Source: Arenicella sp. (GTDB lineage Bacteria; Pseudomonadota; Gammaproteobacteria; Arenicellales; Arenicellaceae). From it: a DNA stretch of 13,746 bases. Under the pieces are notes generated by a model that saw only the letters and a program-made list of their open reading frames with translations, made no database searches and had not been told where the DNA came from. Shown piece after piece: positions 1,387 through 13,746 of the stretch (the first letter of the stretch is position 1; each line of letters begins with the position of its first letter). The translations under genes were made by a program, and so were the position numbers. The DNA lies in NCBI GenBank assembly GCA_016763815.1, contig JAESTB010000548.1, positions 1 to 13,746 of the forward strand. The letters run 5' to 3'.

Positions 1387-3004
1387 TAAATTACTATGTT
1401 CACTTCTTTTGGTCATGGTCAGCGCGAATGCTTGGGCCGCTGCTGAGTCTCAGAGTGGCAATACTTCGGCTATCATTATTTTCGTCGCGTTCGTAGCTGC
1501 CACCTTGTGGATTAGTTATTGGGCTTCTAGCCGGACCAACTCCAGCTCCGCTTTTTACACTGCAGGCGGAAATATTACCGCAGGCCAAAACGGAACGGCT
1601 ATCGCCGGTGACTTCATGTCCGCCGCGTCATTTTTGGGTATTTCCGGCCTTATCTTCACCGCTGGCTTCGACGGTTTGATCTTAGCCATCGGGGCGCTAG
1701 CAGGGTGGCCGATCATGTTGTTTTTAATGTCTGAGCGTATTCGTAACCTCGGCCGTTACACGATCACTGATGTCGTTTCCTATAGGCTGCAACAACGGCC
1801 AATTAGAATGATCGCAACCTTAGGGACTATCTCAGTAATCATTTTCTATTTGATCGCGCAAATGGTTGGCGCCGGAAAACTGGTCGAATTGCTCTTCGGT
1901 ATTCCCTATACGGTTTCTGTCGCGATGGTTGGAGTCTTAGTCATTATTTACGTCACCGCAGGAGGCATGTTAGCGACTACTTGGGTGCAAATTATTAAAG
2001 CTATTCTACTTTTGAGCGGCGCCGCTTTGATGTGTGTGCTGGCCTTAGTAGCGTTCAACTTTAATCTCGATAGCTTGTTCGCAAAAGCGGTCGAGGTTCA
2101 TCCGCGCGGCGAATTAATAATGCAGCCGGGCAGTATTTTCTCTGACCCAATACAGGCGATTACGATTGCTGTTTCGATGATGTTCGGAACCCTTGGCTTG
2201 CCACATGTGCTCATGCGCTTGTTTACGGTCCCAGATATGAAAGCGGCGAAGAAATCTGTGTTTTATGCGTCGAACATGATGGCGCTATTTTACATAATGA
2301 CAATTTTGATTGGCTTTGCCACCATCGCGTTTATAAGCGGTGATCCGCAATATTATACTGATGGAAAACTGATTGGCGGCAGCAACGTAGCGGCGATTCA
2401 TTTAGCGCATGCGTTGGGTGGCGACTTACTTATGGGGTTTATGTCGGCGGTTGCATTCTCGACAATTCTAGCGGTTGTCGCCGGTTTGACGGTGGCGGGT
2501 TCGGCCGCGATTTCACATGACATATACGCCGAACTCTTAAGCAAAGGAAAGCCAGACCCGCGTAAAGAAATGTTTATTTCCAGAATTACCGTGGTGGTTT
2601 TGTGCAGTGTTGCCGTGGGACTTGGCGTTTTGTTTCAAAACCAAAATGTTGCCTTCATCGCGGTAATGCCGATGGTGATCTCGGCGAGTGTGAATTTCCC
2701 GATTCTAATTCTAGCCATGTATTGGCGAGGGTTTACCACTCGCGGCGCGGTGATCGGTGGGCTAGTGGGCTTCGTATCTTCAATCGCTTTGATTGTTGGT
2801 GGGCCAAAAGTGTGGGTCAGTATTATTGGCGCTGAGGCGCCACTCTTTCCATACGATTATCCCGCGTTGTTCACCATGACCGCCGCTTTTATCACCATGG
2901 TTGTCGTTTCAATAACTGATCGCAGTGCGGCTTCGGTTCAAGATAGAGCGCTATTTGATAAGCAGTTAGTGGTGGCGGAGTTAGCCAGTAACAAGAAGAT
3001 GTAG
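1379..3004 (+). CDS. Sodium:solute symporter family monocarboxylate permease (ActP / PaaL-PhaJ-like); candidate phenylacetate importer
   Basis: Strongly colinear by eye with E. coli ActP (YYTAGGNIT..QNG.AIAGD.MSAASFLGISGL, RNLGRYT..DV.SYRL, AQMVGAGKL.ELLFG, GGMLATTWVQIIKA, GLPH.LMR.FTV, AVAF.TILAVVAGL, FPY.YPALF). I place the start at ATG 1379 (MINKLL..., signal-like N-terminus as in ActP, GGTGA 5 nt upstream) rather than at the track GTG 1367. Confidence 0.9.
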   Translation: MINKLLCSLLLVMVSANAWAAAESQSGNTSAIIIFVAFVAATLWISYWASSRTNSSSAFYTAGGNITAGQNGTAIAGDFMSAASFLGISGLIFTAGFDGLILAIGALAGWPIMLFLMSERIRNLGRYTITDVVSYRLQQRPIRMIATLGTISVIIFYLIAQMVGAGKLVELLFGIPYTVSVAMVGVLVIIYVTAGGMLATTWVQIIKAILLLSGAALMCVLALVAFNFNLDSLFAKAVEVHPRGELIMQPGSIFSDPIQAITIAVSMMFGTLGLPHVLMRLFTVPDMKAAKKSVFYASNMMALFYIMTILIGFATIAFISGDPQYYTDGKLIGGSNVAAIHLAHALGGDLLMGFMSAVAFSTILAVVAGLTVAGSAAISHDIYAELLSKGKPDPRKEMFISRITVVVLCSVAVGLGVLFQNQNVAFIAVMPMVISASVNFPILILAMYWRGFTTRGAVIGGLVGFVSSIALIVGGPKVWVSIIGAEAPLFPYDYPALFTMTAAFITMVVVSITDRSAASVQDRALFDKQLVVAELASNKKM

Positions 3005-3052
3005 TTAAAAAATAAAAAAATAATTATTAATAAGTAAAATAGAGGAGTGATT

Positions 3053-5329
3053 ATGAAATTTGCAATAGGCAGTAAACCCAAGCTAAGCTCGCTTGCTATT
3101 GGTGTGGGGTTAGCAATGACGGCCGCCACGCCGGCATTGGCGAAGCAACAGCTTGAAGAAATAATTGTTACAGCGCAGTATCGCGCGCAAAGCATTCAAG
3201 ATGTTCCAATTTCGATCACGGCTATTGGCTCAGAAGAGTTAGAGGCCGCTAATATCTTTGATGCCGGATCTTTGGCCGTTAATGTACCCGGTTTATCGTA
3301 TGGAGAGTTTGCACCTGGACAGGCATTAATTTCATTGCGAGGTGTTAATTCGGCAGACGACGGAGCCGGCTTAGATAATTCAGTGGCGTTATTTTTGGAT
3401 GGCGTTTACATCGGTCGTGGTGCAGGAATTAATTTTGACCTATTTGACCTTGAACGTATCGAGGTATTGAAAGGCCCGCAAGGAACATTGTTCGGTCGTA
3501 ATGCGATCGGTGGAGCAATCAGTGTTGTAACCGAAAAGCCGAGTCAAGAATTCAGCGGAAAGGCCGCTGTTACCGTTGGTAATGAGGGCATACTACGTTA
3601 TCAAGGTTTAGTCAGTGGTGGAATAACTGACAAATTATCAGGCAAGTTAGTTGTGAACCATCGAGAACACGACGGTTTTGTGCGTAATGTGCTACTTGGT
3701 TTGGATCTACAAGACGAAGACCAATCGACGGTTCGAGGCCAGTTATTGTGGGAAGGCGAGAATTCAGAGTGGTTGCTTTCAGCAGATCACTTTGAAGACG
3801 AGCGCGCTGATGCCGGACGAGTGCCAATAGCGGGCCCATTTTTTGAAAACGGAGTGGCTCCTTCAGTTGGCTTAACTGGGCCTCTACAAAATACATCGCC
3901 GGTTGAAGGTTTTAGTGACCGTGAAACGGGTGGAATTAGCTTGCAGGGCGACATCGACTTCGGTTCAGGTAAGATTACTACGATCACCGCGATTCGAAGT
4001 GTTGAAACCGATTGGGAATTACCATCTATTGGTGCTCCAATTGGGGCTGACCTAGCGGCAGGCGTTTTTGGTATTGATGTGATCGATGATATTGAAGAAG
4101 AAATAGACACTTTTTCGCAAGAGTTTCGTTGGACATCACAATCGGACAGTTCTTTTAATTATGTGGTGGGTGCCTTCTTTTTAATCGAGGATACTGATCG
4201 ACGAGAACAATTTCGTTTAGATCGTAATACTCAAGCCACCGGTCAATCTGTGGTCGGTAATGAGTATACCCGAACCGAAAATGAGACGACTAGCTATGCT
4301 CTTTACGGGCAAGGTACTTGGGATATTAACCCGAAAACGACACTGAGTTTTGGTGGTCGATACAGCCGTGATGACCGAGATTATAGAGCCTCTGCGATTA
4401 ACTGTGACGGCAGTGATGAAGCAATTGTCGCAGCCGGTTTTGCAGACAATTCGAATTGTGTGTTTGGCGGAAACCGCGTGCAAGGTAGTTTGAATATTAT
4501 CAATGAAGTGTTCATTCGAGAAGCGGATGTAGATTTTGATGACTTCTCACCAATGGCCTCATTGCAATATCGTCCGAACGAAAATACGATGTACTTTGGA
4601 ACCGTTTCGACTGGTTATAAGTCAGGTGGTTTTGCTGGCTCTCAAGGTGTTGCGTCTGCGGCGACGAACGTGGTCAACCCAGAACAAGTTACCAACTTTG
4701 AACTTGGTTTTAAAGGTGACTTTCTTGACAATACTTTGCGCTTTAATGCGACAGCATTTGTGTCTGACTATGAAGACTTGCAAGTAGTTCGCTTTGGCCC
4801 GGTACCCAATTCTGATTTTGGCTCGTTCCAGACTACCAATATTGGTAGTGCTGATTTGTCGGGTGTCGAGCTAGACTTTATTTGGTACGCAAGCGACCGC
4901 ATTAAGTTTTCAGGCAATTATGCTTACCTTGATACCGAAGCCAATGATTTGGTTCTCCAAGGTGCCAATGGTTCGTCTGATTTTTCAGGTTTAGCACTGC
5001 GCCAAGCGCCTGAGCATTCGTATAGTTTTACCGCAAACTATAATTTACCGACAGCGCATGGTGAGTATGATTTCCGTTTACAGTACAGCCATGTTGATGA
5101 ACAACACTTTGACTTTCCTACGATCACTGAAACCATTGCTGATGAAGTAGATTTACTCGATCTACGAATTAACTGGGTTTCTTCAGATGAGAAGTATCAG
5201 CTGACGTTATGGGGACAAAATGTTACCGATGAAGAATACATTACTCATGCATTTAGAATTGGCCCAGGCTCAATTGGTGTCTATGGTGCCCCCGCCACTT
5301 TTGGCGTGACCGGTACGGTTAACTTTTAG
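3053..5329 (+). CDS. TonB-dependent outer-membrane receptor (plug plus 22-strand barrel type), substrate unknown
   Basis: Signal peptide with an ALA-K cleavage site. A TonB-box/plug start follows (QLEEIIVTAQYRAQSIQDVPISITAIG), then plug motifs (RIEVLKGPQGTLFGRNAIGGAI) and the C-terminal barrel signature ending in a terminal Phe (TGTVNF). GAGGAG at 3042-3047 sits 5 nt before ATG 3053, so the track GTG at 3047 is unlikely. There is no N-terminal FecA-type signalling extension. Confidence 0.9.
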   Translation: MKFAIGSKPKLSSLAIGVGLAMTAATPALAKQQLEEIIVTAQYRAQSIQDVPISITAIGSEELEAANIFDAGSLAVNVPGLSYGEFAPGQALISLRGVNSADDGAGLDNSVALFLDGVYIGRGAGINFDLFDLERIEVLKGPQGTLFGRNAIGGAISVVTEKPSQEFSGKAAVTVGNEGILRYQGLVSGGITDKLSGKLVVNHREHDGFVRNVLLGLDLQDEDQSTVRGQLLWEGENSEWLLSADHFEDERADAGRVPIAGPFFENGVAPSVGLTGPLQNTSPVEGFSDRETGGISLQGDIDFGSGKITTITAIRSVETDWELPSIGAPIGADLAAGVFGIDVIDDIEEEIDTFSQEFRWTSQSDSSFNYVVGAFFLIEDTDRREQFRLDRNTQATGQSVVGNEYTRTENETTSYALYGQGTWDINPKTTLSFGGRYSRDDRDYRASAINCDGSDEAIVAAGFADNSNCVFGGNRVQGSLNIINEVFIREADVDFDDFSPMASLQYRPNENTMYFGTVSTGYKSGGFAGSQGVASAATNVVNPEQVTNFELGFKGDFLDNTLRFNATAFVSDYEDLQVVRFGPVPNSDFGSFQTTNIGSADLSGVELDFIWYASDRIKFSGNYAYLDTEANDLVLQGANGSSDFSGLALRQAPEHSYSFTANYNLPTAHGEYDFRLQYSHVDEQHFDFPTITETIADEVDLLDLRINWVSSDEKYQLTLWGQNVTDEEYITHAFRIGPGSIGVYGAPATFGVTGTVNF

Positions 5330-5392: not shown

Positions 5393-5418
5393 TCCCCGCT
5401 GCTTCTGGCGGGGATTTT
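5393..5418 (+). terminator. Rho-independent terminator after the TonB-dependent receptor gene
   Basis: The stem TCCCCGC (5393-5399) pairs with GCGGGGA (5408-5414), giving 7 bp of which 6 are G:C. The loop is 8 nt and is followed by TTTT (5415-5418). An A-tract (5385-5389) precedes the stem. Confidence 0.7.
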
Positions 5419-5440: not shown

Positions 5441-8400
5441 ATGCTGAATAAAACTATTGTAGAAGTAGTTGATTGGATGGGCGCAACGATGCGCCCATTT
5501 TTTTTGGGTTTGTTATCAGCGCTGGCGTTAAGCGCTGGTTCGTCGGTGGCTTCCGAAGGTAGCGTTACCTCGCCGGACGTGTCTGTAACTCAGGGCGCTG
5601 ACTTAACGGATGCTCTAGAGGGCACGACCATCTACCGAGATGAATATGGTACCCCTCATGTTGTTTCTGACAGCAACTATGGGGTCTATTTTGGCTACGG
5701 ATATGCGGTGGCGACAGACCGATTATTCCAAATGGAAATGCTTAGACGGACGGCAGAAGGTCGTGTGGCTGAAGTATTAGGCCGTAAATATCTTGATCTG
5801 GATAAACACCTGCGCACTGCTTATGACCATCGTGCCGTGAGCCGGCAACTAAACGAGCTAGACGATCAAGACAGAGACGTTTTGCAGGCCTATGCTGCAG
5901 GTTTTAGCAAGCGGGTGAGTGAGGTGCTTAGCGCACAAGCGACACTGCTACCAAAAGAATTTATGGATTATGGGTTTTTGCCGCAGAAATGGAGCTCCTA
6001 TGACGTGGCGATGATTTTTGTTGGGTCTATTATCCATCGTTATTCCGACTTTAATTCCGAGTTAGACAATCTAAGTTTGTTGACCAGTTTGAGCAAGTTG
6101 CATGGCGTAGAAAAGGCTCAGAAAATATTTGATGCGTCTAAATGGTTGGTCGACCCAAGCTCACCAACAACCGTACCGCGAGACCAACCCACCCAAGCCG
6201 CCGCTGTTTCGGCCGTCGTATCTGATACACCATTGAATGCCACACATGCTTGGAATACTCAGCAGCCTCTGGGCGAAGTGCAGACAACGCGAGTGGTGTT
6301 AGACAAAAATGGCAGGTTTCTAGGCACCACTAATGATCCGAAAATGCAAGCTATCGCGGATCAACAACTCGCTGAGTACGGTTTTATTGGCCCAGAATAT
6401 CAAGCGGCGAGCAATTTTTGGTCAGTCAGCGGCAGTAGACTAAGCAATGCCGATGGTGCCCTGGTAAACGGCCCGCAGTTTGGCTTTGGTTTGCCTTCGT
6501 ATGTGTATAGCATTGGTTTACATGGAGGCGATTTTGATTTGGTCGGCAACACGCTATTAGGCTTACCGTCGATGTTATTTGCGCATAACAATAATGTCAG
6601 TTGGGGAAGTACCGCCGGTATGAGTGACCAGGTCGACGTGTACCGGGAACAACTGATTAACAATAAGCCGGAACATTATCGGCATGACAATCAAGATAAA
6701 AAGTTTGAGACTTGGATTGAAACGATCAAGGTTAAGGGTGAAGCCGACGTCGCGGTGACCGCACGGCGTTCAGTTCATGGCATGGTCGTCTCAATGGACC
6801 GTGAAAGTGGTACCGCCTATACCCGCGCTAGAGCATGGGAGGGTGCCGAAGTTCAAACTCTAATGGCCTGGGTGAACTTATCGAAAGATAAAACCATGGA
6901 CGCTGTCCAATCACGCTTGAGCGGCGTGGCGGCTAATATCAATTTTTATTATATGGATGTAAAAGGCAATTTGGGCTACACCCATGGCGGCCGCTATCCG
7001 CGGCGTGCTGATTCTCACGATTCACGAATTCCTGCTGAGGGTTCTGGCCGCGATGATTGGTTGGGTTTTCGTCCCTATTCAGACAGCCCGAATGTGCGTA
7101 ATCCTGATCAAGGTTATATTGTCAATTGGAATAATCGACCTGCTGCAGGTTGGCCTACCAGTGATTTATGGACCTACACATGGAGCGAAGCCGATCGTTC
7201 TAAGCATATTGTGAATGAGATTAATTCATCCGCAAAGATGACGACAGATGACGTTTGGGCTATTACTGAACAGGTTAGCTATAAAGATGTATCGGCGGTT
7301 TTTTTATTGCCTTACTTGACTAAGGCGGTGTCGGCAGTAGTTCTGAGTTCTGACTCTAAAAAGGCATTCGAAATTGTCGAGAACTGGGATCGCGAATGGC
7401 GACTTGAAGCGAATGGAGAATACGGTGCCGCTGAGTTAATAGTCGAAAGTTGGACTAAACGTCTGTTTGAAAATGTCTTTAAAGACGATATAGGTGAAGA
7501 TAAATACGCACTGTATGCGGCGACCAATAACCCGAATAAGCCGCTTGGCCCATCGATGGGTTCCAGTGTTGGCTCGAAGGTGATATTACGTAACTTGACT
7601 TCCCTGGAGAGCGGTACCAATGATTATGATTTTTTCAACGGGGAAACGCCCGCTAAGGTTTTGTCACGGAGCTTTATCGAAACAATCGAAGCTCTGATTG
7701 CGGAGCATGGTAGTGACACCTCAACGTGGACATTAGCGGCGGCACCTATGACTTGGAAACCATACAATTTTCGCGGTGTGCCTCAAGCGTCTGAAGACCG
7801 CTTAGTATCGTTGCCAGCCTATATGAATAGAGGCAGCGAAAACAATTTCTTTGTGGCTAAAGATGGCCGATTTGTAGCCTTTGATGTGAACCCACCTGGG
7901 CAGAGCGGTTTTGTGGCTGCGGATGGAACCGCTGCAAAACATAGTGAAGATCAGGTGGACTTATACTCTACGTATGGAACTAAAGTGCTGCCGTTTACAA
8001 TTGAAGAAATCAAAGCAGCAGCCGTAACAATAGAGATCTTGAATCATGATTCTAAGCCTGAAGTGCCCAAAGCCGGTGCAGGTTTTAAGAGCTCAAGCAA
8101 TTTGCTTGAGCAAATGCAGGTCACTTTTGAGCGAGCCGAGAGCGTTAAAAATCTAGGCGCCTTTATACATCTCGATAATGCGGTGGCTCTGGCGTCTGCG
8201 CATAGCGCTCAGGCCGCGCTTGATGCGGGTAAAACAGTCGGCGCTTTGCATGGTGTGCCGATTGTTGTTAAGGATAATATCCATGTCGCGGGAATGCCCA
8301 ACTCCGCGGGTACACCGGCACTTAAAGGCTTTATGCCGCAAGACAATAATCCTGCGGTTCAACGGCTACTCGATGCCGGCGCGATTGTTATCGGTAAAAC

Positions 8401-9439
8401 AAATATGCATGAGCTAGCATTTGGTATCACCAGTAATAATGCCGCGTTCGGGCCGGTGCGAAATGCATACGACCCATCACGGTTCGCTGGAGGCAGTAGT
8501 GGTGGAACCGCTGTCGCTATAGCCGCCGGAGTTGTCGATATGGGGCTTGGTACTGATACCGGCGGTTCTACGCGTATTCCTCCGGCGTTAAATGGCGTGG
8601 TTGGTTTTCGGCCGTCCTTGGGTCGGTACCCGTCTGGAGGGGTCACGCCCGTGTCGGAAACTCGCGATACTGTTGGGCCGATTGCGAATAATGTGACCAA
8701 CCTGGCGTTATTAGACTGCATAATGAGCGATTGTGATTCAGCGCTTAAGCCTGTGTCGTTGAAGGGCTTGCGTTTGGGGATACCTAGAGAATATTTTTAC
8801 CACAACCTTTCTGAGGATGTTGCAACTACCATGCAACAAACGATCGAAATGCTCGCCAACGCGGGCGTCATAATTGTCGAAGTGGAGATGCATGGCTTAG
8901 AAGAAGCGAATAATGGTGTGAGCTTTCCAGTCGTTCTTTATGAGTTTATTCATGAATTGCCGGTGTATTTAAAAACTCAAAACACCGGAGTTTCGATGCA
9001 ACAACTGGTTGACGGAATCGCTAGCCCAGATGTGAAAGCCACTGTCCTAAGCCAACTAGGTGAAGAGGCAATGCCCGAGCTATCGTATCGACAAGCCCTG
9101 GATGAGTTTAGACCCCGGTTACAATTGCTCTATCAAAAAACCTTTGATGAATACAATGTTGCTGCATTATTAATGCCGACTACGGTATTATCAGCACAGC
9201 CCATTGATAGTAGTGATGAAACGGTGATGTTGAATGGCACGCAAGTACCGACATTTCCGACTTATATCAGAAATACTGATCCATCTTCAAATGCAGGCAT
9301 ACCGAGTTTGACGCTCCCGGCTGGGAAGGGGCGAGATGGTTTGCCGATTGGTGTTTTGTTAGACGGCCCGAAAAATAGCGACCGACGATTGTTATCGATT
9401 GGCTTGGCTGTAGAGAAAATGATTAACAAACCACCTTAA
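5441..9439 (+). CDS. Exported fusion protein: penicillin G acylase family Ntn hydrolase (peptidase S45; alpha chain, spacer, beta chain) joined by a short linker to an amidase-signature (AS) family amidase
   Basis: A single uninterrupted 1332-codon ORF. Residues ~60-867 match E. coli Pac by eye (IYRDEYGTPH, YGYAVATDRLFQMEM, LLPKEF, DVAMIFVG, SELDNL, then beta-chain SNFW, NGPQFG, WGSTAG, YIVNWNN, ADR, NRGSEN, PPGQSGF). Residues ~887-1332 are an AS amidase (LHGVPIVVKDN, GGSSGGTAVAIAAG, GTDTGGSTRIPPA). The coordinates give the maximal ORF. The physiological start is more likely Met17 (ATG 5489), which yields a classical signal peptide MRPFFLGLLSALALSAGSSVAS-E. Met13 (5477) is also possible. Confidence 0.9.
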   Translation: MLNKTIVEVVDWMGATMRPFFLGLLSALALSAGSSVASEGSVTSPDVSVTQGADLTDALEGTTIYRDEYGTPHVVSDSNYGVYFGYGYAVATDRLFQMEMLRRTAEGRVAEVLGRKYLDLDKHLRTAYDHRAVSRQLNELDDQDRDVLQAYAAGFSKRVSEVLSAQATLLPKEFMDYGFLPQKWSSYDVAMIFVGSIIHRYSDFNSELDNLSLLTSLSKLHGVEKAQKIFDASKWLVDPSSPTTVPRDQPTQAAAVSAVVSDTPLNATHAWNTQQPLGEVQTTRVVLDKNGRFLGTTNDPKMQAIADQQLAEYGFIGPEYQAASNFWSVSGSRLSNADGALVNGPQFGFGLPSYVYSIGLHGGDFDLVGNTLLGLPSMLFAHNNNVSWGSTAGMSDQVDVYREQLINNKPEHYRHDNQDKKFETWIETIKVKGEADVAVTARRSVHGMVVSMDRESGTAYTRARAWEGAEVQTLMAWVNLSKDKTMDAVQSRLSGVAANINFYYMDVKGNLGYTHGGRYPRRADSHDSRIPAEGSGRDDWLGFRPYSDSPNVRNPDQGYIVNWNNRPAAGWPTSDLWTYTWSEADRSKHIVNEINSSAKMTTDDVWAITEQVSYKDVSAVFLLPYLTKAVSAVVLSSDSKKAFEIVENWDREWRLEANGEYGAAELIVESWTKRLFENVFKDDIGEDKYALYAATNNPNKPLGPSMGSSVGSKVILRNLTSLESGTNDYDFFNGETPAKVLSRSFIETIEALIAEHGSDTSTWTLAAAPMTWKPYNFRGVPQASEDRLVSLPAYMNRGSENNFFVAKDGRFVAFDVNPPGQSGFVAADGTAAKHSEDQVDLYSTYGTKVLPFTIEEIKAAAVTIEILNHDSKPEVPKAGAGFKSSSNLLEQMQVTFERAESVKNLGAFIHLDNAVALASAHSAQAALDAGKTVGALHGVPIVVKDNIHVAGMPNSAGTPALKGFMPQDNNPAVQRLLDAGAIVIGKTNMHELAFGITSNNAAFGPVRNAYDPSRFAGGSSGGTAVAIAAGVVDMGLGTDTGGSTRIPPALNGVVGFRPSLGRYPSGGVTPVSETRDTVGPIANNVTNLALLDCIMSDCDSALKPVSLKGLRLGIPREYFYHNLSEDVATTMQQTIEMLANAGVIIVEVEMHGLEEANNGVSFPVVLYEFIHELPVYLKTQNTGVSMQQLVDGIASPDVKATVLSQLGEEAMPELSYRQALDEFRPRLQLLYQKTFDEYNVAALLMPTTVLSAQPIDSSDETVMLNGTQVPTFPTYIRNTDPSSNAGIPSLTLPAGKGRDGLPIGVLLDGPKNSDRRLLSIGLAVEKMINKPP
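5477..5505 (+). promoter_or_regulatory. Terminator-like hairpin plus U-tract overlapping the candidate start codons of the acylase-amidase fusion gene (possible attenuator or translation-occluding structure)
   Basis: ATGGGCGCA (5477-5485), loop ACGA, TGCGCCCAT (5490-5498) form a perfect 9-bp stem. Including the last stem base, 8 consecutive T follow (5498-5505). ATG 5477 (Met13) forms the base of the 5-prime arm. ATG 5489 (Met17) spans the loop and the 3-prime arm. Confidence 0.55.
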
Positions 9440-9465
9440 ACAAAAATCTTACAAGTAGGACTCAA

Positions 9466-10464
9466 ATGCAACCCACCAACTCTCAACATTCTTTGAATAA
9501 GCATATCGGCGGGTTTATCGAATCTCTAATACTCGACCGGCGTGTGCATGCCAAATCGCTGGTCTCTACCTTGTATGGGGATATGGTGGTAACCAATGAT
9601 GGTTTCGCCTGGGTTGAAACTGTGTGCGCTGCGCTTGAGTTATTGGGTGTTAATGACCGGCTTGTACGTACAGCTTTGTTTCGTCTCAGAGAGGATGGCT
9701 GGGTAACAGCAACTCGCTCTGGGCGCAAAAGTTATTATCAATTGACTGAGTCTGCCGACGCTCAAACTCGTCAAGCGGAGCAGCGAATTTACTACTCCGA
9801 TACGCCGAGCTGGGATGGTAGCTGGGTTTTGATATTTTTGCTTGCTCCGTCCTTAGATGCAGAACTAAGACGTGAGTTTGAGCAAGAACTAGGGTGGATA
9901 GGTTTCGGTGCGATGAGCAAACGTGTTTGGGCCTATCCTGGCAATAAGTTTGAGCTTATCTCTGAGAAAATCAATCGGCTAGATTTAACCGGCAAGGTCA
10001 TTGCCATGCGCTGTAAAAATATTCATGAAGTAGACTTAGGTTTGAATATCGACGATCGAGAGCTTGCGGCTATGTGTATGCCGATCTCAGAGGTGGAAAG
10101 TATCTATAAGCAGTTTATACAAGATTTTTCGCCGTTGATCGATGAATACGGCGTTTTCTCGATGCAAGGAAACAATGCTGAAATGTTATCGCTGCGATTA
10201 TTGATGATGGATGAATATCGCCGAGCGACCTTACGTGATCCCCATTTACCACGAGCGTTACTGCCTGATAATTGGGCAGGCCACGAAGCATTTGTTCTCT
10301 GTGGTAAAATTTATAAACAAATTTATAAAGCGGCCAATATGCATTACAAAGAATTACAAAGAAATGCGGGTGTGGTTGATGTCGTCGACGGTGACGGCGC
10401 TGATAAATCAACTAGGCCATTGAGTTATGACGGTAGGTTTCTCGCCGAAACGATTAACAAATAA
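9466..10464 (+). CDS. paaX: PaaX, phenylacetyl-CoA-responsive transcriptional repressor of phenylacetate catabolism
   Basis: Colinear by eye with E. coli PaaX (SL.S.LYGD, R.ALFRL..EGW......GR.S.Y.L....., P.WDG.W.L, GFGA, LRDP.LP..LLP..WAG). AGGA lies 7 nt upstream of the ATG. The gene starts only 26 nt after the stop of the fusion gene. Confidence 0.9.
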   Translation: MQPTNSQHSLNKHIGGFIESLILDRRVHAKSLVSTLYGDMVVTNDGFAWVETVCAALELLGVNDRLVRTALFRLREDGWVTATRSGRKSYYQLTESADAQTRQAEQRIYYSDTPSWDGSWVLIFLLAPSLDAELRREFEQELGWIGFGAMSKRVWAYPGNKFELISEKINRLDLTGKVIAMRCKNIHEVDLGLNIDDRELAAMCMPISEVESIYKQFIQDFSPLIDEYGVFSMQGNNAEMLSLRLLMMDEYRRATLRDPHLPRALLPDNWAGHEAFVLCGKIYKQIYKAANMHYKELQRNAGVVDVVDGDGADKSTRPLSYDGRFLAETINK

Positions 10465-10559: not shown

Positions 10560-11642
10560 CTATTTTTCATCAAAATCGACAGTGACTTCGTCGCTGATCG
10601 GGTGAGCTTGGCAGGTTAAGACAAAGCCCTGTTGTATTTCTTCATCGCTGAGCGAATAGTTTAGATCCATCTCTGTCTCGCCTTTAATGACTTTGGCCTT
10701 GCAGGTGGCACACACGCCAGCCTTGCAGGCAAATGGCAAATCTTTTCGAACTTTCAGCGCTGCATCAAGTATTGATTCTCCGCCTCGGGCGAGTTCTAAT
10801 TTACTGCCTTTACCATCGATGATAACAACCAGTTTAACTAAGTGTGAGCGCTCTTCGTCAGTCAATGATTTTTGAGCTTGAGCGTTGGCTATTGCTTGAA
10901 GGTCTTCAGGTACTCCAAATAGTTCGCTATGAACGTTCTTTTTTTCTACTCCAGCGATCACAAAGGCCTCTTGTGCGGAGGTAACCATTTCATAGGGGCC
11001 ACAAAGAAACACATCATTCAACTGGTCTGCTGGAATCAGTGTCTTCAAAAACTGAGAAATCTTCTTACCATCAATCCGGCCATTTAATAAGTCAGAGTTT
11101 TGGATTTCACGGCTCAACACGTTGAATACCGCGAGGCGTTCATGATACTTGTTTTTTAGTCCCTCTATTTCTTCTAAGAACATGATTGTGTCAGTGCTCT
11201 TGTTTCCATAAATAAGCGTAAAAGTACTACTCGATTCTGTTTCAAGGGTGGTTTTTAAAATTGACAGAACAGGGGTAATACCACTCCCCGCAGCGACGCC
11301 AATATAATTGTTGCTTTGCGTAGCATCCAGCTCAGTATAAAAGTGGCCGGTAGGCGGAAGCACATCGATGGTATCACCAACCGCAAGTTCTTCATTCGCC
11401 CATGTTGAAAAGAGTCCACCTTCAACCTTTTTAATGCCGACACGGAGTTCGTTGTCAGCGACACTGCTGCAAATCGAATATGAACGTCTTAGCTCTTCAC
11501 CATCAATTTCACGGATGAAGGTTAAATTTTGGCCTTGTGCATAGGTGAAATCACCTAATCTATCAGAGGGGACATCTAGAGAAACGACAACAGAGTCGTG
11601 TGTCTCGCGAGTAATATTCTTAACGGTGGCTTTAGCAAACAT
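10560..11642 (-). CDS. paaE: Phenylacetyl-CoA 1,2-epoxidase reductase subunit PaaE (FNR-like FAD/NAD(P)H domains plus a C-terminal plant-type 2Fe-2S ferredoxin)
   Basis: RRSYSICS flavin-binding motif (RxYS), GVAAGSGITP nucleotide-binding motif, and a C-terminal CKAGVCATCKAKV...C cluster-binding motif. Colinear by eye with E. coli PaaE. It is the last gene of the paaABCDE string. Confidence 0.92.
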   Translation of the reverse strand: MFAKATVKNITRETHDSVVVSLDVPSDRLGDFTYAQGQNLTFIREIDGEELRRSYSICSSVADNELRVGIKKVEGGLFSTWANEELAVGDTIDVLPPTGHFYTELDATQSNNYIGVAAGSGITPVLSILKTTLETESSSTFTLIYGNKSTDTIMFLEEIEGLKNKYHERLAVFNVLSREIQNSDLLNGRIDGKKISQFLKTLIPADQLNDVFLCGPYEMVTSAQEAFVIAGVEKKNVHSELFGVPEDLQAIANAQAQKSLTDEERSHLVKLVVIIDGKGSKLELARGGESILDAALKVRKDLPFACKAGVCATCKAKVIKGETEMDLNYSLSDEEIQQGFVLTCQAHPISDEVTVDFDEK

Positions 11643-11650
11643 GTTTTATT

Positions 11651-12148
11651 TCAGATTGGTTTGAAGTAGTCGAACGGCTCTTTGCATTGATTGCACTTCC
11701 AGAGTGCTTTACAAGCAGTAGAACCAAATTGACTAATTATTTGTGTGTTTAGAGATCGGCATTGAGGGCAGGGCGCCGTGAACAATAGCCGCTGTTCTTC
11801 CGATGATTGGCTTAAATCCGTGGTTCGACACGGTGGGGCAATGCCATAGTCACGCAATTTTTGTTTACTTTCATCGCTCATCCAGTCGGTGGTCCAAGCG
11901 GGAGATAAAACCAGCAACACCTCAGATTCGGGATACCCATTGTCAGCAAGCACGGTGCTGACATCTTGCGCTATTTGATCTATTGCTGGGCAGCCAGAGT
12001 ACGTGGGTGTAATGGTGACTTTAACGCGGCCGTGTTCTATTGCAACTCCCCTGAGTATGCCCATTTCATCTATGCTTAAAACTGGGATTTCGGGGTCTGC
12101 CACAGACGAGAGTATCTCGAGTAGTTTTACCTGTTCTTGAGACTGCAT
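11651..12148 (-). CDS. paaD: Phenylacetyl-CoA epoxidase accessory subunit PaaD
   Basis: Matches E. coli PaaD by eye (DPEIPVL.I.D.G, TPTYSGCPA, PAWTTDWM, REYGI.PP, C.....FGSTACKAL..C..C.EPFDYFK.I). I place the start at ATG 12148 (MQSQEQ...), 2 nt after the paaC stop. The track GTG at 12157 is an alternative. Confidence 0.88.
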   Translation of the reverse strand: MQSQEQVKLLEILSSVADPEIPVLSIDEMGILRGVAIEHGRVKVTITPTYSGCPAIDQIAQDVSTVLADNGYPESEVLLVLSPAWTTDWMSDESKQKLRDYGIAPPCRTTDLSQSSEEQRLLFTAPCPQCRSLNTQIISQFGSTACKALWKCNQCKEPFDYFKPI

Positions 12149-12150
12149 AT

Positions 12151-12903
12151 TTACCACTTACACCCTGGCATGCTACGCGGCAGAATCTGCATTTCAGCTA
12201 AGATGTACCCCAAGTGTTGAGTGTGGATGCCTTGACGACCACCACTCATTAGAAACGCCTCGTCGGGCTTTATTAGTGTTGCTTCTTCGAGTAACGCGGT
12301 GACAGCGGTGTCCCATATTACTTTCACTTTGCTTAAATCGGCCGCATGGCCTTTAGCCAGTAAGCGTTGATCTACCTCATCGGATTCGAACATTTCGGGA
12401 GTGAACTGCCACATCTCGTTTACTGCCTCCTGCATGCGTTCATGGCTGAGCTCAGTGCCATCGCCAAGACGTTTAACCCAGTTGCTGCTGTGGCGTACAT
12501 GGTATTGCGCTTCTTTCACTGATTTAGTCGCGATTGCCGCAAGCATTTCATCGTTGCAATTCACCAGCTCTTGAAGGAATGCTAAGTGCCAAACGTCGTA
12601 GAAATACTGTCTTGCGATGGTGTCAGCGAAATTTCCACTGGGCTGCTCAACCAGTAATAAATTTCTCCATTGGCGCTCGTCACGCATGAATGCTAAATCG
12701 TCTTCGCTGATGTCTTTATCTGAAAGCTCTGCTGCGTATTGGTAGAGCGAGCGAGCTTGGCCAATCATGTCCAGGCCGATATTGGTTAAGGCTATGTCTT
12801 CTTCAAGCTCAGGAGCCTTAGCCGCCCACTGACAGAGGCGCTGACACAGTATCATCGCGTTGTCCGCTTGGCGCAAGGTATAGGTATATAAATCGTTATT
12901 CAT
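12151..12903 (-). CDS. paaC: Phenylacetyl-CoA epoxidase structural subunit PaaC
   Basis: Matches E. coli PaaC by eye (YTLR.DN...L.QRL..W...APELE.D.AL.NIGLD..GQAR, RDERQ..NLLLVEQP.GNFADTIARQYF.D.WH, H..HLG..LAEMQ). Its ATG overlaps the paaB stop (TAATG). Confidence 0.9.
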   Translation of the reverse strand: MNNDLYTYTLRQADNAMILCQRLCQWAAKAPELEEDIALTNIGLDMIGQARSLYQYAAELSDKDISEDDLAFMRDERQWRNLLLVEQPSGNFADTIARQYFYDVWHLAFLQELVNCNDEMLAAIATKSVKEAQYHVRHSSNWVKRLGDGTELSHERMQEAVNEMWQFTPEMFESDEVDQRLLAKGHAADLSKVKVIWDTAVTALLEEATLIKPDEAFLMSGGRQGIHTQHLGYILAEMQILPRSMPGCKW

Positions 12904-13193
12904 TACATATGCTCGAGTTCTTTTGGCAACTTATAAAACGTGGGGTGTCGATAAATTTTGTCTCCTGACGGATCAAAAAGAACACTCTTATCATCGGGGT
13001 CTGACGCCACAATTTGTGACGAAGGTACAACCCAAATGCTGACACCCTCCATTCTGCGTGTGTATAGGTCTCGGGCATTTTGCATTGCCATTTCGGCATC
13101 AGACGCTCTAAGGCTGCCTGCGTGTTTGTGATCAATACCTCGGTTTGAGCGTATAAATACTTCCCAAAGCTGATAGTCTTTTTTGTCAGTCAT
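12903..13193 (-). CDS. paaB: Phenylacetyl-CoA epoxidase subunit PaaB
   Basis: The 96-aa product MTDKKDYQLWEVFIRSNRGIDHKHAGSLRASDAEMAMQNARDLYTRR.EG.SIWVV....IVAS...........DPS.DKIYRHPTFY matches the length and sequence of E. coli PaaB. I place the start at the internal ATG (13193), not at the 128-aa track ORF start, which would overlap the paaA 3-prime end. Confidence 0.9.
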   Translation of the reverse strand: MTDKKDYQLWEVFIRSNRGIDHKHAGSLRASDAEMAMQNARDLYTRRMEGVSIWVVPSSQIVASDPDDKSVLFDPSGDKIYRHPTFYKLPKELEHM

Positions 13194-13221
13194 AACCGTC
13201 GTTTCTCTCGTCTGTTTTTGC

Positions 13222-13746
13222 TTAGGCAGCTTGCGCTTTGGCAGCTTGCGCTTTGGCGGATTTTTTTTCGGCATAGGCAATCGCGGCATCGCGTACCCAT
13301 TGACCTTCTTCGTGTGCTTTGCGCCGATTATCGACGCGCAGCTTGTTACAGGGGCCGTTGCCCTTTATCACGTTATAGAACTCTGTCCAGTCAGGTTCGC
13401 CATAATCATAGTGGCCGGACTCCTCATTCCACTTGAGCTCGGGGTCTGGAATCGTTAAGCCCAATATTTCGGCTTGGCCAACCGCCATATCGATATATTT
13501 TTGGCGCAGCTCATCATTGGAAAACAGTTTGATTTTCCATTTCATAGACAGCTCAGAATTGGGCGATTGGTCATCGCGAGGCCCGAACATCATAATAGAT
13601 GGCCACCACCACCGATTAAGCGCGTCTTGCGCCATTTCTTTTTGTTTAGGGGTGCCATTGCAAAGCGACAGCATGATTTCATAGCCTTGGCGTTGATGAA
13701 AACTCTCCTCCTTACAAACGCGAACCATTGCACGCGCGTAAGGGCC
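13222..13746 (-). CDS. paaA: Phenylacetyl-CoA epoxidase catalytic (di-iron) subunit PaaA, N-terminal part outside the window
   Basis: The reading frame stays open to the window edge ([25 protein letters not shown]...). It matches the C-terminal half of E. coli PaaA by eye, including the EESFH di-iron ligand motif. Stop is TAA at 13222-13224. Confidence 0.92.
13225..13254. repeat. Perfect 15-bp tandem duplication (GGCAGCTTGCGCTTT x2) inside the last codons of paaA
   Basis: Read directly from the sequence: 13225-13239 is identical to 13240-13254, and GGC begins a third unit. On the minus strand it encodes the C-terminal tail (AKAQA)2, seen as ...[14 protein letters not shown]-stop. Confidence 0.85.

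What the first reader, a model, noticed from the sequence alone, without database searches (positions are those of the whole stretch)
5441..9439. Exported 1332-aa fusion of a penicillin-G-acylase-type Ntn hydrolase to a complete amidase-signature amidase
Both halves look catalytically competent.

Acylase half:
- It has the Pac layout of alpha chain, a ~75-aa spacer, then a beta chain starting at SNFW.
- The autoprocessing and catalytic Ser beta1 is Ser324 (agc 6410-6412).
- Beta F24, F57, S67 and A69, the NWNN Asn, the ADR Arg and the Ca-site acids (alpha SELD; beta D73, V75, D76) are all present in a by-eye alignment to E. coli Pac.

Linker and amidase half:
- Where Pac normally ends (about residue 867-870), the ORF runs on through a 19-aa Pro/Lys/Gly/Ser linker (NHDSKPEVPKAGAGFKSSS, nt 8042-8098).
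- It then enters an AS amidase whose Lys-cisSer-Ser triad has exactly the FAAH spacing (+75, +24): K944 (8270-8272), S1019 in GGSSGG (8495-8497) and S1043 in GGSTR (8567-8569).

Export and maturation:
- A Sec-type signal peptide at the N-terminus implies both activities are periplasmic. AS amidases are usually stand-alone cytoplasmic enzymes.
- Pac-type maturation would give an alpha chain plus a beta-amidase chain of about 1009 aa.

I know of no characterised S45-AS fusion. Known relatives of both halves release arylacetic acids. Pac acts on N-substituted phenylacetamides, and IaaH/AMI1-like AS amidases act on primary arylacetamides such as phenylacetamide or indole-3-acetamide. The fusion could therefore be a broad phenylacetyl/arylacetyl-amide hydrolase, or a two-step processing enzyme for a doubly amide-linked substrate.
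Basis: partly seen in the sequence, partly recalled or inferred. Interest (0 to 1): 0.85.

Follow-up and report, generated by a model that had tools for sequence, protein, structure and literature searches.

The report
Fused penicillin acylase–arylacetamidase, phenylacetate locus
A real but rare gene fusion in a marine Arenicella bacterium joins a penicillin-G-acylase-type enzyme to an indoleacetamide-hydrolase-type amidase in one exported protein next to the phenylacetate-degradation genes. It most likely releases phenylacetate from two classes of amides, so it is a new combination of known parts rather than a new kind of enzyme.

Summary
Window 5441-9439 (+) is one uninterrupted 1332-aa ORF with a full-length Penicil_amidase domain (aa 63-859) and a full-length Amidase domain (aa 895-1318).

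It is not a merge artefact. Nineteen protein clusters from independent NCBI, JGI, ENA and Logan assemblies (51-75% identity) carry both domains in frame, with all catalytic residues invariant.

The architecture is rare: 6 of 185,579 species-representative genomes. No paper was found on it. Trees of each half indicate at least two separate fusions, one in Arenicella-like bacteria and one in Halieaceae.

In many unfused relatives the same four genes sit together: a TonB-dependent receptor, the acylase, an IaaH-like amidase and PaaX. The window adds a DUF485/ActP-like symporter and paaABCDE.

The amidase half passes NCBIfam's indoleacetamide-hydrolase cut-off and is about 46% identical to Agrobacterium IaaH. 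Stand-alone relatives are often exported lipoproteins, so a periplasmic AS amidase is normal in this group.

AlphaFold gives two well-folded domains joined by a disordered linker, with no confident interface.

Best reading (inferred): a periplasmic two-headed phenylacetyl-amide hydrolase feeding the paa pathway. It is a new variant of known kinds, of moderate interest.

The parts
1090..1386 (+). DUF485 (YjcH-like) small membrane protein, partner of the symporter
   Evidence: PF04341 at 2.4e-16. The same DUF485+SSF pair occurs in the unfused Halieaceae module L033 and in L012.
1367..3004 (+). Sodium:solute symporter of the ActP/PaaL type; inferred phenylacetate importer across the inner membrane
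   Evidence: PF00474 at 7.5e-101. NCBIfam ActP subfamily scores 743.6 bits, just under its cut-off of 750. It is 74-89% identical to the symporter in L033, L012 and L013.
3047..5329 (+). TonB-dependent outer-membrane receptor, orthologous across the fused and unfused acylase loci
   Evidence: Plug and beta-barrel domains. It is 78%, 63%, 62% and 52% identical to the receptor directly upstream of the acylase in L004, L006, L002 and L033.
5393..5414 (+). Terminator-like hairpin after the receptor gene
   Evidence: It is conserved in L009, L012 and L013.
5441..9439 (+). Whole fusion ORF, 1332 aa. The true start is possibly 5477 or 5489.
5441..5554 (+). Signal peptide region (MGATMRPFFLGLLSALALSAGSSVA|SE). 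There is no twin-arginine motif, and Gly33 replaces the lipobox Cys of homologues.
   Evidence: Alignment A1 and the lipobox scan. The cleavage site is inferred by eye and was not predicted with a tool.
5627..6190 (+). Acylase alpha chain (about aa 63-250), with alphaR145 at R200 and Ca-site alphaE152 at E207
   Evidence: Matches PGA alpha chains at E 2e-56 to 4e-55.
6191..6409 (+). Spacer pro-peptide (about aa 251-323), expected to be removed by autoprocessing
   Evidence: It lies between the alpha and beta matches. It is partly conserved in homologues: T282, V286, G291, F293, G295 and A323.
6410..8041 (+). Acylase beta chain, beginning at nucleophile Ser324 (SNFW). Oxyanion residues are A392 and N564; R586 is also present; Ca-site residues are D396, V398 and D399.
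   Evidence: Matches PGA beta chains from residue 1 at E 1e-121 to 1e-107. Foldseek target TM-score is 0.89-0.91. The residues are invariant.
8042..8098 (+). 19-aa linker NHDSKPEVPKAGAGFKSSS
   Evidence: Variable in length and sequence among homologues. Residues 871-884 have pLDDT below 50.
8099..9436 (+). IaaH-type amidase-signature domain with triad K944, cis-S1019 and S1043
   Evidence: NCBIfam NF005688 scores 590.7 bits against a cut-off of 532. It is 45-46% identical over its full length to Ti-plasmid iaaH. PDB 2dc0 matches at E 1e-61 with TM-score 0.84.
5475..5500 (+). Conserved GC-rich hairpin plus T8 run inside the 5' end of the ORF, covering ATG-13 and ATG-17. It is a possible regulatory element of unknown function.
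   Evidence: z = -3.2; 4 pairs with compensatory changes.
9466..10464 (+). PaaX-like repressor, 27 nt downstream and co-directional with the fusion gene
   Evidence: PaaX, PaaX_M and PaaX_C domains. TIGR02277 scores 216.9, below its cut-off of 264.55. It follows the acylase gene in L001, L004, L005, L009-L013 and L090.
10560..13746 (-). paaE, paaD, paaC, paaB and the 3' part of paaA (phenylacetyl-CoA epoxidase). paaA runs off the contig end.
   Evidence: NCBIfam equivalogs for PaaE, PaaD, PaaC and PaaB are above their cut-offs. PaaA was read by eye from the translation of 13222-13746; no family search was completed on it.

Best explanation
The gene encodes a Sec-exported, two-headed amidohydrolase. 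It is the entry enzyme of a conserved phenylacetyl-amide scavenging module found in marine Gammaproteobacteria.

Shown:
- One in-frame ORF carries a complete PGA-type Ntn hydrolase and a complete IaaH-type amidase-signature domain.
- All catalytic residues are conserved.
- The ORF is embedded between an orthologous TonB-dependent receptor with an ActP/PaaL-like symporter on one side, and paaX with paaABCDE on the other.

Inferred mechanism:
1. The pre-protein is exported unfolded through Sec.
2. The acylase half cuts itself before Ser324. This gives an alpha chain of about 215-225 aa and a 1009-aa beta chain that carries the amidase on a flexible tether of about 19 residues.
3. The acylase head hydrolyses N-substituted phenylacetamides, for example phenylacetyl-amino acids.
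4. The amidase head hydrolyses primary arylacetamides, namely phenylacetamide and possibly indole-3-acetamide.
5. Both heads release phenylacetate in the periplasm. The symporter takes it up and the paa pathway degrades it, probably under PaaX control.

The fusion arose at least twice from neighbouring genes. Its likely benefit is co-export, co-localisation and 1:1 stoichiometry, not substrate channelling.
For: Architecture and residues.

Not an artefact: 19 clusters carry both Pfam domains, from four independent sources. Six GTDB species genomes carry the fusion.

Two origins:
- All-fused monophyly is found in 0 of 100 bootstraps for both halves.
- Halieaceae fused acylases group with unfused Halioglobus acylases in 100 of 100.
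- Their amidase halves group with stand-alone exported amidases in 100 of 100.
- The linkers differ between the clades, and four of the six aligned Halieaceae fusions keep a Met at the start of the amidase part and all six keep an extra N-terminal amidase segment.

The gene module is conserved without fusion:
- L033 has receptor, amidase, DUF485, symporter and acylase in that order.
- L004 has amidase, receptor, acylase, PaaX and paa.
- In all, 12 unfused loci have the IaaH-like amidase within 10 kb of receptor plus acylase. In six of them it is immediately convergent.

Each enzyme also occurs alone with the receptor, which argues for independent PAA-releasing activities:
- L007 has amidase, receptor, paaX and paa but no acylase.
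- L006, L015, L016, L022 and L067 have the acylase and receptor but no amidase.

Other support:
- The amidase is of IaaH type: NF005688 is above its cut-off and it is about 46% identical to Ti-plasmid iaaH.
- The acyl-pocket residues of PGA are largely kept.
- The AlphaFold model has pLDDT 84.7 and pTM 0.63 with a disordered linker, which indicates a flexible tether.
- E. coli PGA is already known to be PaaX-repressed and is regarded as a scavenger of PAA amides and esters (PMC9493321).
- PaaL is the phenylacetate permease of P. putida (PMC3224230).
Against: - No enzymatic data exist. Substrate assignments rest on about 35% identity to PGA and about 46% identity to IaaH.
- PGA itself is known to accept phenylacetamide (my own knowledge). 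An extra primary-amide hydrolase therefore looks partly redundant under a purely parallel model.
- A TonB-dependent receptor is unusual for substrates as small as phenylacetamide.
- No E. coli-type PaaX operator (TGATTC-N27-GAATCA) is present in the window. PaaX control is inferred from adjacency only.
- In the sister group of the Arenicella clade the stand-alone amidase lacks a signal peptide. Its compartment therefore differs between relatives.
- Four substrate-contact positions differ from E. coli PGA: alphaM142I, alphaF146Y, betaV56L and betaF71M.
- The loop holding N564 is low-confidence in the model (residues 563-580).
Confidence: 0.6

Rival explanations
1. Sequential two-step enzyme. 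The two heads act one after the other on a single doubly amide-linked substrate imported by the TonB-dependent receptor, with one head's product being the other's substrate. Candidate substrates are a phenylacetyl-amino-acid amide or peptide amide, or phenylacetyl-glutamine or -asparagine.
For: - Gene fusions often link consecutive steps.
- The receptor suggests a larger or scarcer substrate than phenylacetamide.
- The fusion recurred twice and the genes are tightly adjacent in many genomes.
- Exported peptide amidase Pam is a structural relative of the amidase half (E 5e-44).
- PGA alone could already handle phenylacetamide (my own knowledge), so the second head may have a different job.
Against: - Each enzyme occurs alone with the receptor, and with paa genes in the case of L007.
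- The nearest stand-alone amidases can be cytoplasmic while the acylase is a periplasmic lipoprotein.
- The amidase's closest characterised relative is a primary arylacetamide hydrolase, not a peptide amidase.
- No confident inter-domain interface is predicted (pTM 0.63, disordered linker).
Confidence: 0.2
2. Auxin-manipulating enzyme. The amidase head makes indole-3-acetic acid from indole-3-acetamide, and the acylase head frees auxins from amino-acid conjugates. The purpose would be to influence algal or plant hosts rather than to feed catabolism.
For: - The amidase half meets the NCBIfam indoleacetamide-hydrolase equivalog cut-off and is about 46% identical to the T-DNA iaaH.
- Phenylacetate is itself an auxin, and phenylacetyl-amino-acid conjugates occur naturally in plants (PMC12369477).
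Against: - The conserved partners are catabolic and uptake genes: paaABCDE, paaX, the symporter and the receptor.
- No iaaM or other auxin-biosynthesis gene is present in the window.
- An exported enzyme beside a receptor and an importer fits nutrient scavenging better.
Confidence: 0.08
3. Penicillin (beta-lactam) catabolism or detoxification module, analogous to the put operon or to classical penicillin acylase use.
For: - The acylase half is a true PGA homologue.
- In soil bacteria a beta-lactamase plus two amidases feed phenylacetate from penicillin into the paa pathway (Crofts 2018, as summarised in PMC11446756).
Against: - No beta-lactamase is present in the window or in the related loci inspected.
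- The organisms are marine sediment and coastal Gammaproteobacteria.
- The second head is IaaH-like, and nothing links it to benzylpenicilloic acid.
Confidence: 0.05
4. Artefact: two adjacent genes merged by an assembly or sequencing error at the junction.
For: - The window is a single low-coverage MAG contig.
- One close relative (L005/L089) does show a frame break in the linker.
Against: - Nineteen clusters from NCBI, JGI, ENA and Logan assemblies carry the in-frame junction at 51-75% identity.
- Six species-representative genomes carry it.
- Composition is smooth across the junction.
- The amidase part has no start codon, RBS or signal peptide of its own in the Arenicella clade.
Confidence: 0.02

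Closest known systems
Escherichia coli / Kluyvera / Providencia penicillin G acylase (Pac/PGA; MEROPS S45, Ntn hydrolase)
   Same: - Layout of signal peptide, alpha chain, spacer and beta chain.
- Ser beta1 nucleophile in SNxW.
- Oxyanion residues betaA69 and betaN241, plus betaR263.
- Ca-site residues.
- Most acyl-pocket residues.
- About 35% identity in beta, with target TM-score about 0.9.
- Linkage to PaaX and the paa catabolon. In E. coli, PaaX binds the pga promoter (PMC9493321).
   Different: - It carries a 465-aa C-terminal extension (linker plus AS amidase).
- The spacer is about 74 aa, against 54 aa in E. coli (the E. coli figure is my own knowledge).
- The signal is Sec or lipoprotein type without a twin-arginine motif. 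E. coli PGA uses Tat (my own knowledge).
- Four contact residues differ: alphaM142I, alphaF146Y, betaV56L and betaF71M.
- It is partnered with a TonB-dependent receptor and a symporter.
Indoleacetamide hydrolase IaaH/Tms2 of Agrobacterium Ti plasmids (NCBIfam NF005688; amidase-signature family)
   Same: - 45-46% identity over the whole domain.
- Above the NF005688 equivalog cut-off.
- Lys, cis-Ser, Ser triad and GGSSGG signature.
   Different: - Here it is a C-terminal domain of an exported acylase, not a free protein. T-DNA IaaH is expressed in the plant cell (my own knowledge).
- The context is catabolic (paa), not auxin biosynthesis with iaaM.
Stand-alone exported IaaH-like or 'mandelamide amidase'-annotated amidases of Halieaceae and other bacteria (for example P0136, P0148, P0149, P0163, P0175 and the L033 amidase)
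   Same: - 52-58% identity.
- They have N-terminal signal peptides or lipoboxes, so they are periplasmic.
- They are adjacent to an orthologous or related receptor, paaX and paa.
   Different: They are separate polypeptides with their own export signal. None has been characterised.
Peptide amidase Pam of Stenotrophomonas maltophilia (PDB 1m21/1m22)
   Same: An AS amidase that is processed from a signal-bearing precursor (my own knowledge). It is a structural relative (E about 1e-43, target TM-score about 0.76).
   Different: It is much more distant than IaaH. It acts on C-terminal peptide amides and has no link to phenylacetate.
put operon for penicillin catabolism (beta-lactamase, MFS importer, amidases Put1 and Put2, then paa) in soil Proteobacteria
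   Same: Amidases release phenylacetate, which is then consumed by the paa pathway (PMC11446756 citing Crofts 2018).
   Different: No beta-lactamase is present here. The transporters differ (TonB receptor plus SSS symporter). The enzymes are fused and of PGA and IaaH types.
PaaL/PhaJ phenylacetate permease of Pseudomonas putida
   Same: The paa-linked uptake role is the one inferred for window 1367-3004. PaaL is required for growth on phenylacetate (PMC3224230).
   Different: The window protein was not compared directly with PaaL. Membership of the same SSS subfamily rests on my own knowledge and on the near-cut-off ActP hit.

Membership tests
Penicillin G acylase family (Pfam PF01804, MEROPS S45, Ntn hydrolases) | Full-length match to the family profile above the curated cut-off | tested here: met
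   PF01804 scores 410.7 bits against a cut-off of 21.3, covering profile positions 3-675 of 675.
Penicillin G acylase family (Pfam PF01804, MEROPS S45, Ntn hydrolases) | Precursor layout of alpha chain, spacer and beta chain, with the nucleophile Ser as first residue of beta | tested here: met
   Solved beta chains align from their residue 1 to S324. Alpha chains align to residues 63-250. About 74 residues lie between them. S324 is invariant in 17 homologues.
Penicillin G acylase family (Pfam PF01804, MEROPS S45, Ntn hydrolases) | Oxyanion-hole and catalytic helper residues (betaQ23, betaA69, betaN241, betaR263) and the Ca2+ site | tested here: met
   Q346, A392, N564 and R586 are present. So are E207, D396, V398, D399 and D575. 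All are present and invariant.
Penicillin G acylase family (Pfam PF01804, MEROPS S45, Ntn hydrolases) | PGA fold | tested here: met
   The AlphaFold model matches PGA beta chains with target TM-score 0.89-0.91. The construct lacked the signal peptide and spacer.
Penicillin G acylase family (Pfam PF01804, MEROPS S45, Ntn hydrolases) | Phenylacetyl-specific acyl pocket (alphaM142, alphaF146, betaP22, betaF24, betaV56, betaF57, betaS67, betaW154, betaI177) | tested here: inconclusive
   Six of nine residues are identical: P345, F347, F380, S390, W477 and I500. Three are conservatively changed: I197, Y201 and L379. The leaving-group residue betaF71 is M394. This is compatible with phenylacetyl specificity but does not prove it.
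Penicillin G acylase family (Pfam PF01804, MEROPS S45, Ntn hydrolases) | Autoproteolytic maturation and hydrolysis of phenylacetyl amides | not testable with these tools
   This needs expression, chain-size analysis and enzyme assays.
Amidase-signature family (Pfam PF01425) | Full-length profile match, GGSS[GS]G signature, Lys/cis-Ser/Ser triad and AS fold | tested here: met
   PF01425 scores 333.3 bits against a cut-off of 27. K944, S1019 and S1043 are invariant with +75 and +24 spacing. The GGSSGG signature is present. Target TM-score to 2dc0 is 0.84.
Indoleacetamide hydrolase (NCBIfam NF005688 equivalog) | Score above the curated equivalog cut-off and close similarity to characterised IaaH | tested here: met
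   The score is 590.7 bits against a cut-off of 532. Identity to Ti-plasmid iaaH is 45-46% over 99-100% of the domain.
Indoleacetamide hydrolase (NCBIfam NF005688 equivalog) | Hydrolysis of indole-3-acetamide or phenylacetamide | not testable with these tools
   This needs an enzyme assay. The context (paa genes, no iaaM) points to phenylacetamide rather than indole-3-acetamide.
PaaX regulon (phenylacetyl-CoA catabolon) | Physical linkage to paaX and paa genes | tested here: met
   paaX lies 27 nt downstream and paaEDCBA is adjacent. The linkage is conserved in at least 10 related loci.
PaaX regulon (phenylacetyl-CoA catabolon) | PaaX operator (TGATTC-N27-GAATCA in E. coli) in the promoter region | tested here: not met
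   There are 0 exact matches. Relaxed matches are no more frequent than chance, and none lies in an intergenic region. The Arenicella PaaX is divergent and below the TIGR02277 cut-off, so it may recognise another site.
Bacterial lipoproteins | Lipobox L-[AS]-[GA]-C at the end of the signal peptide | tested here: not met
   The window has LSAG (Gly33, GGT). Fourteen of the other 16 aligned fusions match the lipobox pattern used; P0019 and P0020 also have a Cys at the aligned position, in non-canonical boxes. The window protein is therefore probably cut by signal peptidase I, unless G33 is a sequencing error.

The most novel reading that the evidence does not exclude
The tethered heads form a dedicated two-step machine for one specific, still unidentified natural product. 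This would be a phenylacetyl-capped, amide-terminated compound taken up by the cognate TonB-dependent receptor. Lineages would tune how much fused versus free acylase they make. One relative (L005/L089) would do this through a -1 ribosomal frameshift at an in-phase A_AAA_AAG heptamer placed exactly in the linker.
Probability: 0.15. Interest if true: 0.75.

Novelty: new variant of a known kind. Interest (0 to 1): 0.5.

Why it matters
- **Natural role of PGA.** Penicillin G acylase is among the most used industrial enzymes, yet its natural substrates and role have stayed conjectural ("scavenger of phenylacetyl compounds").
- **A coherent uptake and degradation module.** This locus and its relatives place a PGA in one module: outer-membrane receptor, periplasmic acylase, IaaH-type amidase, monocarboxylate symporter, paa pathway and PaaX. 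The module is conserved across marine Halieaceae and Arenicella, and the two hydrolases have fused at least twice.
- **Comparative support.** This is strong comparative evidence that the acylase and the arylacetamidase work on the same substrate pool.
- **Experimental handles.** Cultured relatives are available, for example Parahaliea mediterranea (L018), Halieaceae WSDMB12 (L051) and Luminiphilus syltensis (P0109). The ligand of the receptor could be sought in them.
- **Biocatalysis.** A natural single-gene enzyme combining secondary-amide and primary-amide phenylacetyl hydrolase activities may also be of practical interest.

Tried and rejected
- **Merge artefact: rejected.** In-frame orthologues come from four independent data sources.
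- **Single origin of the fusion: rejected.** Bootstrapped neighbour-joining trees of both halves reject it. These are NJ with Kimura distances only; no maximum-likelihood tool was available.
- **E. coli-type PaaX operator: not found.** Exact and relaxed searches found nothing, either in the whole window or in intergenic regions. A sigma-70 scan gave nothing above background, and no promoter was found between the receptor terminator and the ORF.
- **Architecture census.**
  - A junction-spanning query against 1.84 billion representatives returned only two representatives that span the junction.
  - The other long hits were tandem amidases or a eukaryotic receptor-amidase chimera.
  - Distant independent S45+AS fusions could still be hidden below the top 150.
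- **Structure for a channel or interface.** Only pLDDT and pTM are returned. A pTM of 0.63 with a disordered linker gives no support for a fixed interface. Active-site geometry could not be measured. The construct had to omit the signal peptide and spacer to fit 1200 residues.
- **Literature.** Searches for the fusion, for the two Pfam accessions together, for acylase plus TonB receptor, and for Arenicella plus phenylacetate each gave 0 papers. One broad search was uninformative. Galan et al. 2004 was not held.
- **L005 as a natural split.** It turned out to be a 1-nt-shorter linker rather than two ordinary genes.

Full report
**1. The observation.**

The window holds one uninterrupted ORF at 5441-9439 (+), ATG to stop, 1332 aa.
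- Pfam finds two full-length domains on it. Penicil_amidase PF01804 covers aa 63-859 (E 2.3e-122, profile 3-675 of 675). Amidase PF01425 covers aa 895-1318 (E 3.5e-99, profile 6-445 of 445).
S324 is AGC at 6410-6412, K944 is at 8270-8272, S1019 at 8495-8497 and S1043 at 8567-8569. The 19-aa linker lies at 8042-8098, and the triad spacing is +75 and +24.
- Solved PGA beta chains align from their residue 1 to S324 without gaps for about 300 residues. Alpha chains align to aa 63-250.
- This places the oxyanion and helper residues at Q346, A392, N564 and R586. The Ca-site residues are E207, D396, V398 and D399. The acyl-pocket residues are P345, F347, F380, S390, W477 and I500.
- Four contact positions differ: alphaM142 is I197, alphaF146 is Y201, betaV56 is L379 and betaF71 is M394.
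- GC content is even across the junction.

**2. It is not an artefact, and it is rare.**

- A search of 5.8 billion proteins returned 19 clusters with both Pfam domains, at 51-100% identity, from NCBI, JGI, ENA and Logan assemblies.
- In an alignment of 17 full-length members, every catalytic residue of both halves is invariant. The linker varies in length and sequence.
- The window protein is deposited as MBL4673985.1, 'indoleacetamide hydrolase [Arenicella sp.]'. Close relatives are named 'penicillin amidase'. Automatic annotation has therefore named only one half each time.
- Among 185,579 species-representative genomes, six carry the fusion. They are Arenicella and unclassified gammaproteobacterial MAGs, one Halieaceae MAG, and two contigs binned as Bacteroidota that are clearly Arenicella-like.
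- A junction-spanning query against 1.84 billion 50%-identity representatives found only two representatives that cross the junction. Other long hits were unrelated architectures.
- No PDB chain covers both domains. No paper was found.

**3. Surroundings.**

- Upstream, on the same strand, lie a PcaD-like lactonase (40-768), a DUF485 protein (1090-1386), an ActP/PaaL-type sodium:solute symporter (1367-3004) and a TonB-dependent receptor (3047-5329).
- Downstream lies a PaaX-like regulator, 27 nt after the stop (9466-10464). It is followed, convergently, by paaE, paaD, paaC, paaB and the end of paaA.
- The receptor directly upstream of the acylase is orthologous in fused and unfused loci (52-78% identity).
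- The symporter is 74-89% identical in L033, L012 and L013.

**4. Evolution of the fusion.**

- Neighbour-joining trees with 100 bootstraps were built separately for the acylase and amidase parts.
- They never recover all fusions as one clade (0 of 100 for both halves).
- The Halieaceae fusions group with unfused Halioglobus acylases (100 of 100). Their amidase parts group with stand-alone, signal-bearing amidases (100 of 100).
- The Arenicella-type amidase parts are sister to a different group of stand-alone amidases.
- The junctions also differ. All six aligned Halieaceae fusions keep an extra N-terminal amidase segment, and four of them have a Met where a separate amidase gene would have started.
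- I therefore infer at least two independent fusions.

**5. The unfused state is widespread.**

- L033 (Halieaceae) has receptor, amidase (with signal peptide), DUF485, symporter and acylase (lipoprotein) in one direction.
- L004 has amidase, receptor, acylase, PaaX and paaEDCBA. Its amidase is 59% identical to the window's amidase half.
- A tblastn synteny table shows the IaaH-like amidase (50-59% identical) within 10 kb of receptor plus acylase in 12 unfused loci. These come from Halieaceae, Luminiphilus, Parahaliea and relatives.
- In six of those loci the amidase is immediately downstream and convergent.
- Each enzyme can also stand alone with the receptor. L007 has the amidase with paaX and paa but no acylase. 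L006, L015, L016, L022 and L067 have the acylase without the amidase.

**6. Export.**

- The N-terminus (MGATMRPFFLGLLSALALSAGSSVASE) is a Sec-type signal without a twin-arginine motif.
- Most fused and unfused relatives end it with a lipobox (LSAC). The window has Gly33 (GGT) at the Cys position. This copy would therefore be a soluble periplasmic protein, unless that base is an error.
- The likely start is M13 (5477) or M17 (5489) rather than 5441, judged from homologue N-termini.
- Stand-alone amidases of this subfamily frequently carry signal peptides or lipoboxes. The ones closest to the Arenicella clade mostly do not.
- A periplasmic AS amidase is thus ordinary in this group.

**7. What each half is.**

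- The acylase half is a true PGA homologue. It is about 35% identical in the beta chain, and the AlphaFold model has a target TM-score of 0.89-0.91 against PGA beta chains.
- The amidase half exceeds the NCBIfam indoleacetamide-hydrolase equivalog cut-off (590.7 against 532).
- It is 45-46% identical over its full length to the iaaH of Agrobacterium Ti plasmids.
- Its best solved relative is the uncharacterised Thermus amidase 2dc0 (E 1e-61). Peptide amidase Pam is more distant.
- IaaH-type enzymes hydrolyse primary arylacetamides. This is established knowledge and was not tested here.

**8. Structure.**

- The construct was aa 62-250 plus 322-1332, which fits the 1200-residue limit. It was folded with a 47-sequence alignment.
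- The result was mean pLDDT 84.7 and pTM 0.63.
- Both domains are confident. The linker (residues 871-884) has pLDDT below 50.
- The modest pTM is what is expected if the relative domain placement is undefined. I read this as a flexible tether, with no evidence for a channel.
- Coordinates and PAE were not available, so the distance between active sites could not be measured.
- The loop around N564 is also low-confidence.

**9. Mechanism.**

Shown:
- the architecture;
- the conserved catalytic residues;
- the conserved gene module;
- the repeated fusion.

Inferred:
- Sec export, followed by autoprocessing at Ser324 into alpha and beta-amidase chains.
- The acylase head hydrolyses N-substituted phenylacetamides. 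Phenylacetyl-amino-acid conjugates occur naturally in plants (PMC12369477).
- The amidase head hydrolyses phenylacetamide and perhaps indole-3-acetamide.
- Phenylacetate is imported by the symporter. PaaL is the phenylacetate permease in P. putida (PMC3224230).
- Degradation proceeds by the paa pathway under PaaX. In E. coli, PaaX represses pga, and PGA is regarded as a scavenger of PAA amides and esters (PMC9493321).
- I favour parallel action of the two heads, because each enzyme also occurs alone with the receptor and paa genes, and because the amidase's compartment varies among relatives.

Points against:
- An obligatory two-step reaction on a doubly amidated substrate remains possible.
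- A TonB-dependent receptor for such small substrates remains unexplained.
- PGA appears redundant with the amidase on phenylacetamide.
- No E. coli-type PaaX operator exists in the window.

**10. Comparison and verdict.**

- Both halves pass every sequence- and fold-level membership test of their families.
- Activities and processing cannot be tested here.
- The combination on one polypeptide, its lipoprotein or periplasmic setting, and its receptor-symporter-paa module are undescribed as far as my searches reach.
- The parts and the chemistry are familiar. This is a new variant of known kinds.
- Its main value is as comparative evidence on the natural role of penicillin acylases, and as a defined, testable marine phenylacetyl-amide utilisation locus.
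- Interest: 0.5.

Noticed in passing
window 5475-5500 (+), with the T-run to about 5508: An 11-bp GC-rich hairpin (GGATGGGCGCA-ACGA-TGCGCCCATTT) followed by T8 looks like an intrinsic terminator. It lies inside the 5' end of the fusion ORF and covers the candidate start codons ATG-13 and ATG-17. The RNA fold has z = -3.2. It is conserved in the Arenicella-clade loci L009, L012, L013, L005 and L010, with compensatory changes in 4 pairs. It could be an attenuator or a start-codon-sequestering element. No promoter was found between the receptor terminator (5393-5414) and the ORF.
   Followed up: partly
L005 3734-3751 and L089 296-313 (relatives, 72-76% identical to the window protein): The acylase and amidase halves are in different frames because the linker is 1 nt shorter than in the in-frame orthologue L090 (GTA AAA AAA AAG ATT TAA against GTT AAA AAA AAA GAT TTA). 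The same sequence appears in assemblies of two sequencing runs (DRR671597 and DRR671603). The break sits on a canonical, in-phase -1 slippery heptamer A_AAA_AAG, one codon before the stop. A -1 shift would give ...AAAVKKKDLT..., identical to the orthologue. It may be a programmed frameshift that makes both free acylase and the fusion, or a recent fission.
   Followed up: partly
window 5537-5539 (codon 33, GGT): The window protein has Gly where more than 90% of homologues have the lipobox Cys (TGT). A single base decides between a lipoprotein and a soluble periplasmic protein. This could be real variation or a MAG consensus error.
   Followed up: partly
L012 (JBLHME010000084.1, 'Cryomorphaceae') and L013 (JBLHMH010000020.1, 'Polaribacter sp.'): Two contigs assigned to Bacteroidota MAGs carry the whole Arenicella-type module: symporter 88-89% identical, receptor about 70%, fusion 74%, plus PaaX and paa. 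They are most likely mis-binned gammaproteobacterial contigs.
   Followed up: no
L002/L003 13959-23930 (Halieaceae-type fusion locus): Downstream of the fusion lies a cluster of further amide-bond hydrolases and transport genes. It contains a histone-deacetylase-like amidohydrolase, a 505-aa AS amidase, an Amidohydro_3 protein, a second TonB-dependent receptor, a 467-aa AS amidase and an SCFA transporter. It looks like an amide-utilisation island.
   Followed up: no
window 40-768 (+); Acinetobacter loci L034-L056: A PcaD-type 3-oxoadipate enol-lactonase (above the TIGR02427 cut-off) sits at the left edge of the window. A homologue (38-47% identical) lies in the flank upstream of the distant PGA-like gene (32-34% identical) in many Acinetobacter genomes, and directly upstream in L043 and L045. 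This may be chance or a wider lactonase-acylase linkage.
   Followed up: no
window 9439-9466 and 10490-10516: paaX follows the fusion gene after only 27 nt on the same strand, so the two are probably co-transcribed. This would make the acylase-amidase gene part of an autoregulated unit. A 12-bp hairpin at 10490-10516 sits between the convergent paaX and paaE genes and may act as a bidirectional terminator.
   Followed up: no
L005 6185-7819 and 8574-9845: In this Logan contig paaD-paaE and paaA-paaB are called as single fused genes, whereas L089 from the sister run has them separate. This suggests local indel errors in L005. The linker frame break, by contrast, is shared by both contigs.
   Followed up: partly
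proteins P0275, P0281, P0356 (one search hits): Other long proteins carry this amidase type. Two are tandem double-amidase proteins (963 and 1143 aa). One is a 1115-aa protein combining Furin-like, Receptor-L and GF_recep_IV domains with a C-terminal AS amidase, and is probably eukaryotic.
   Followed up: partly
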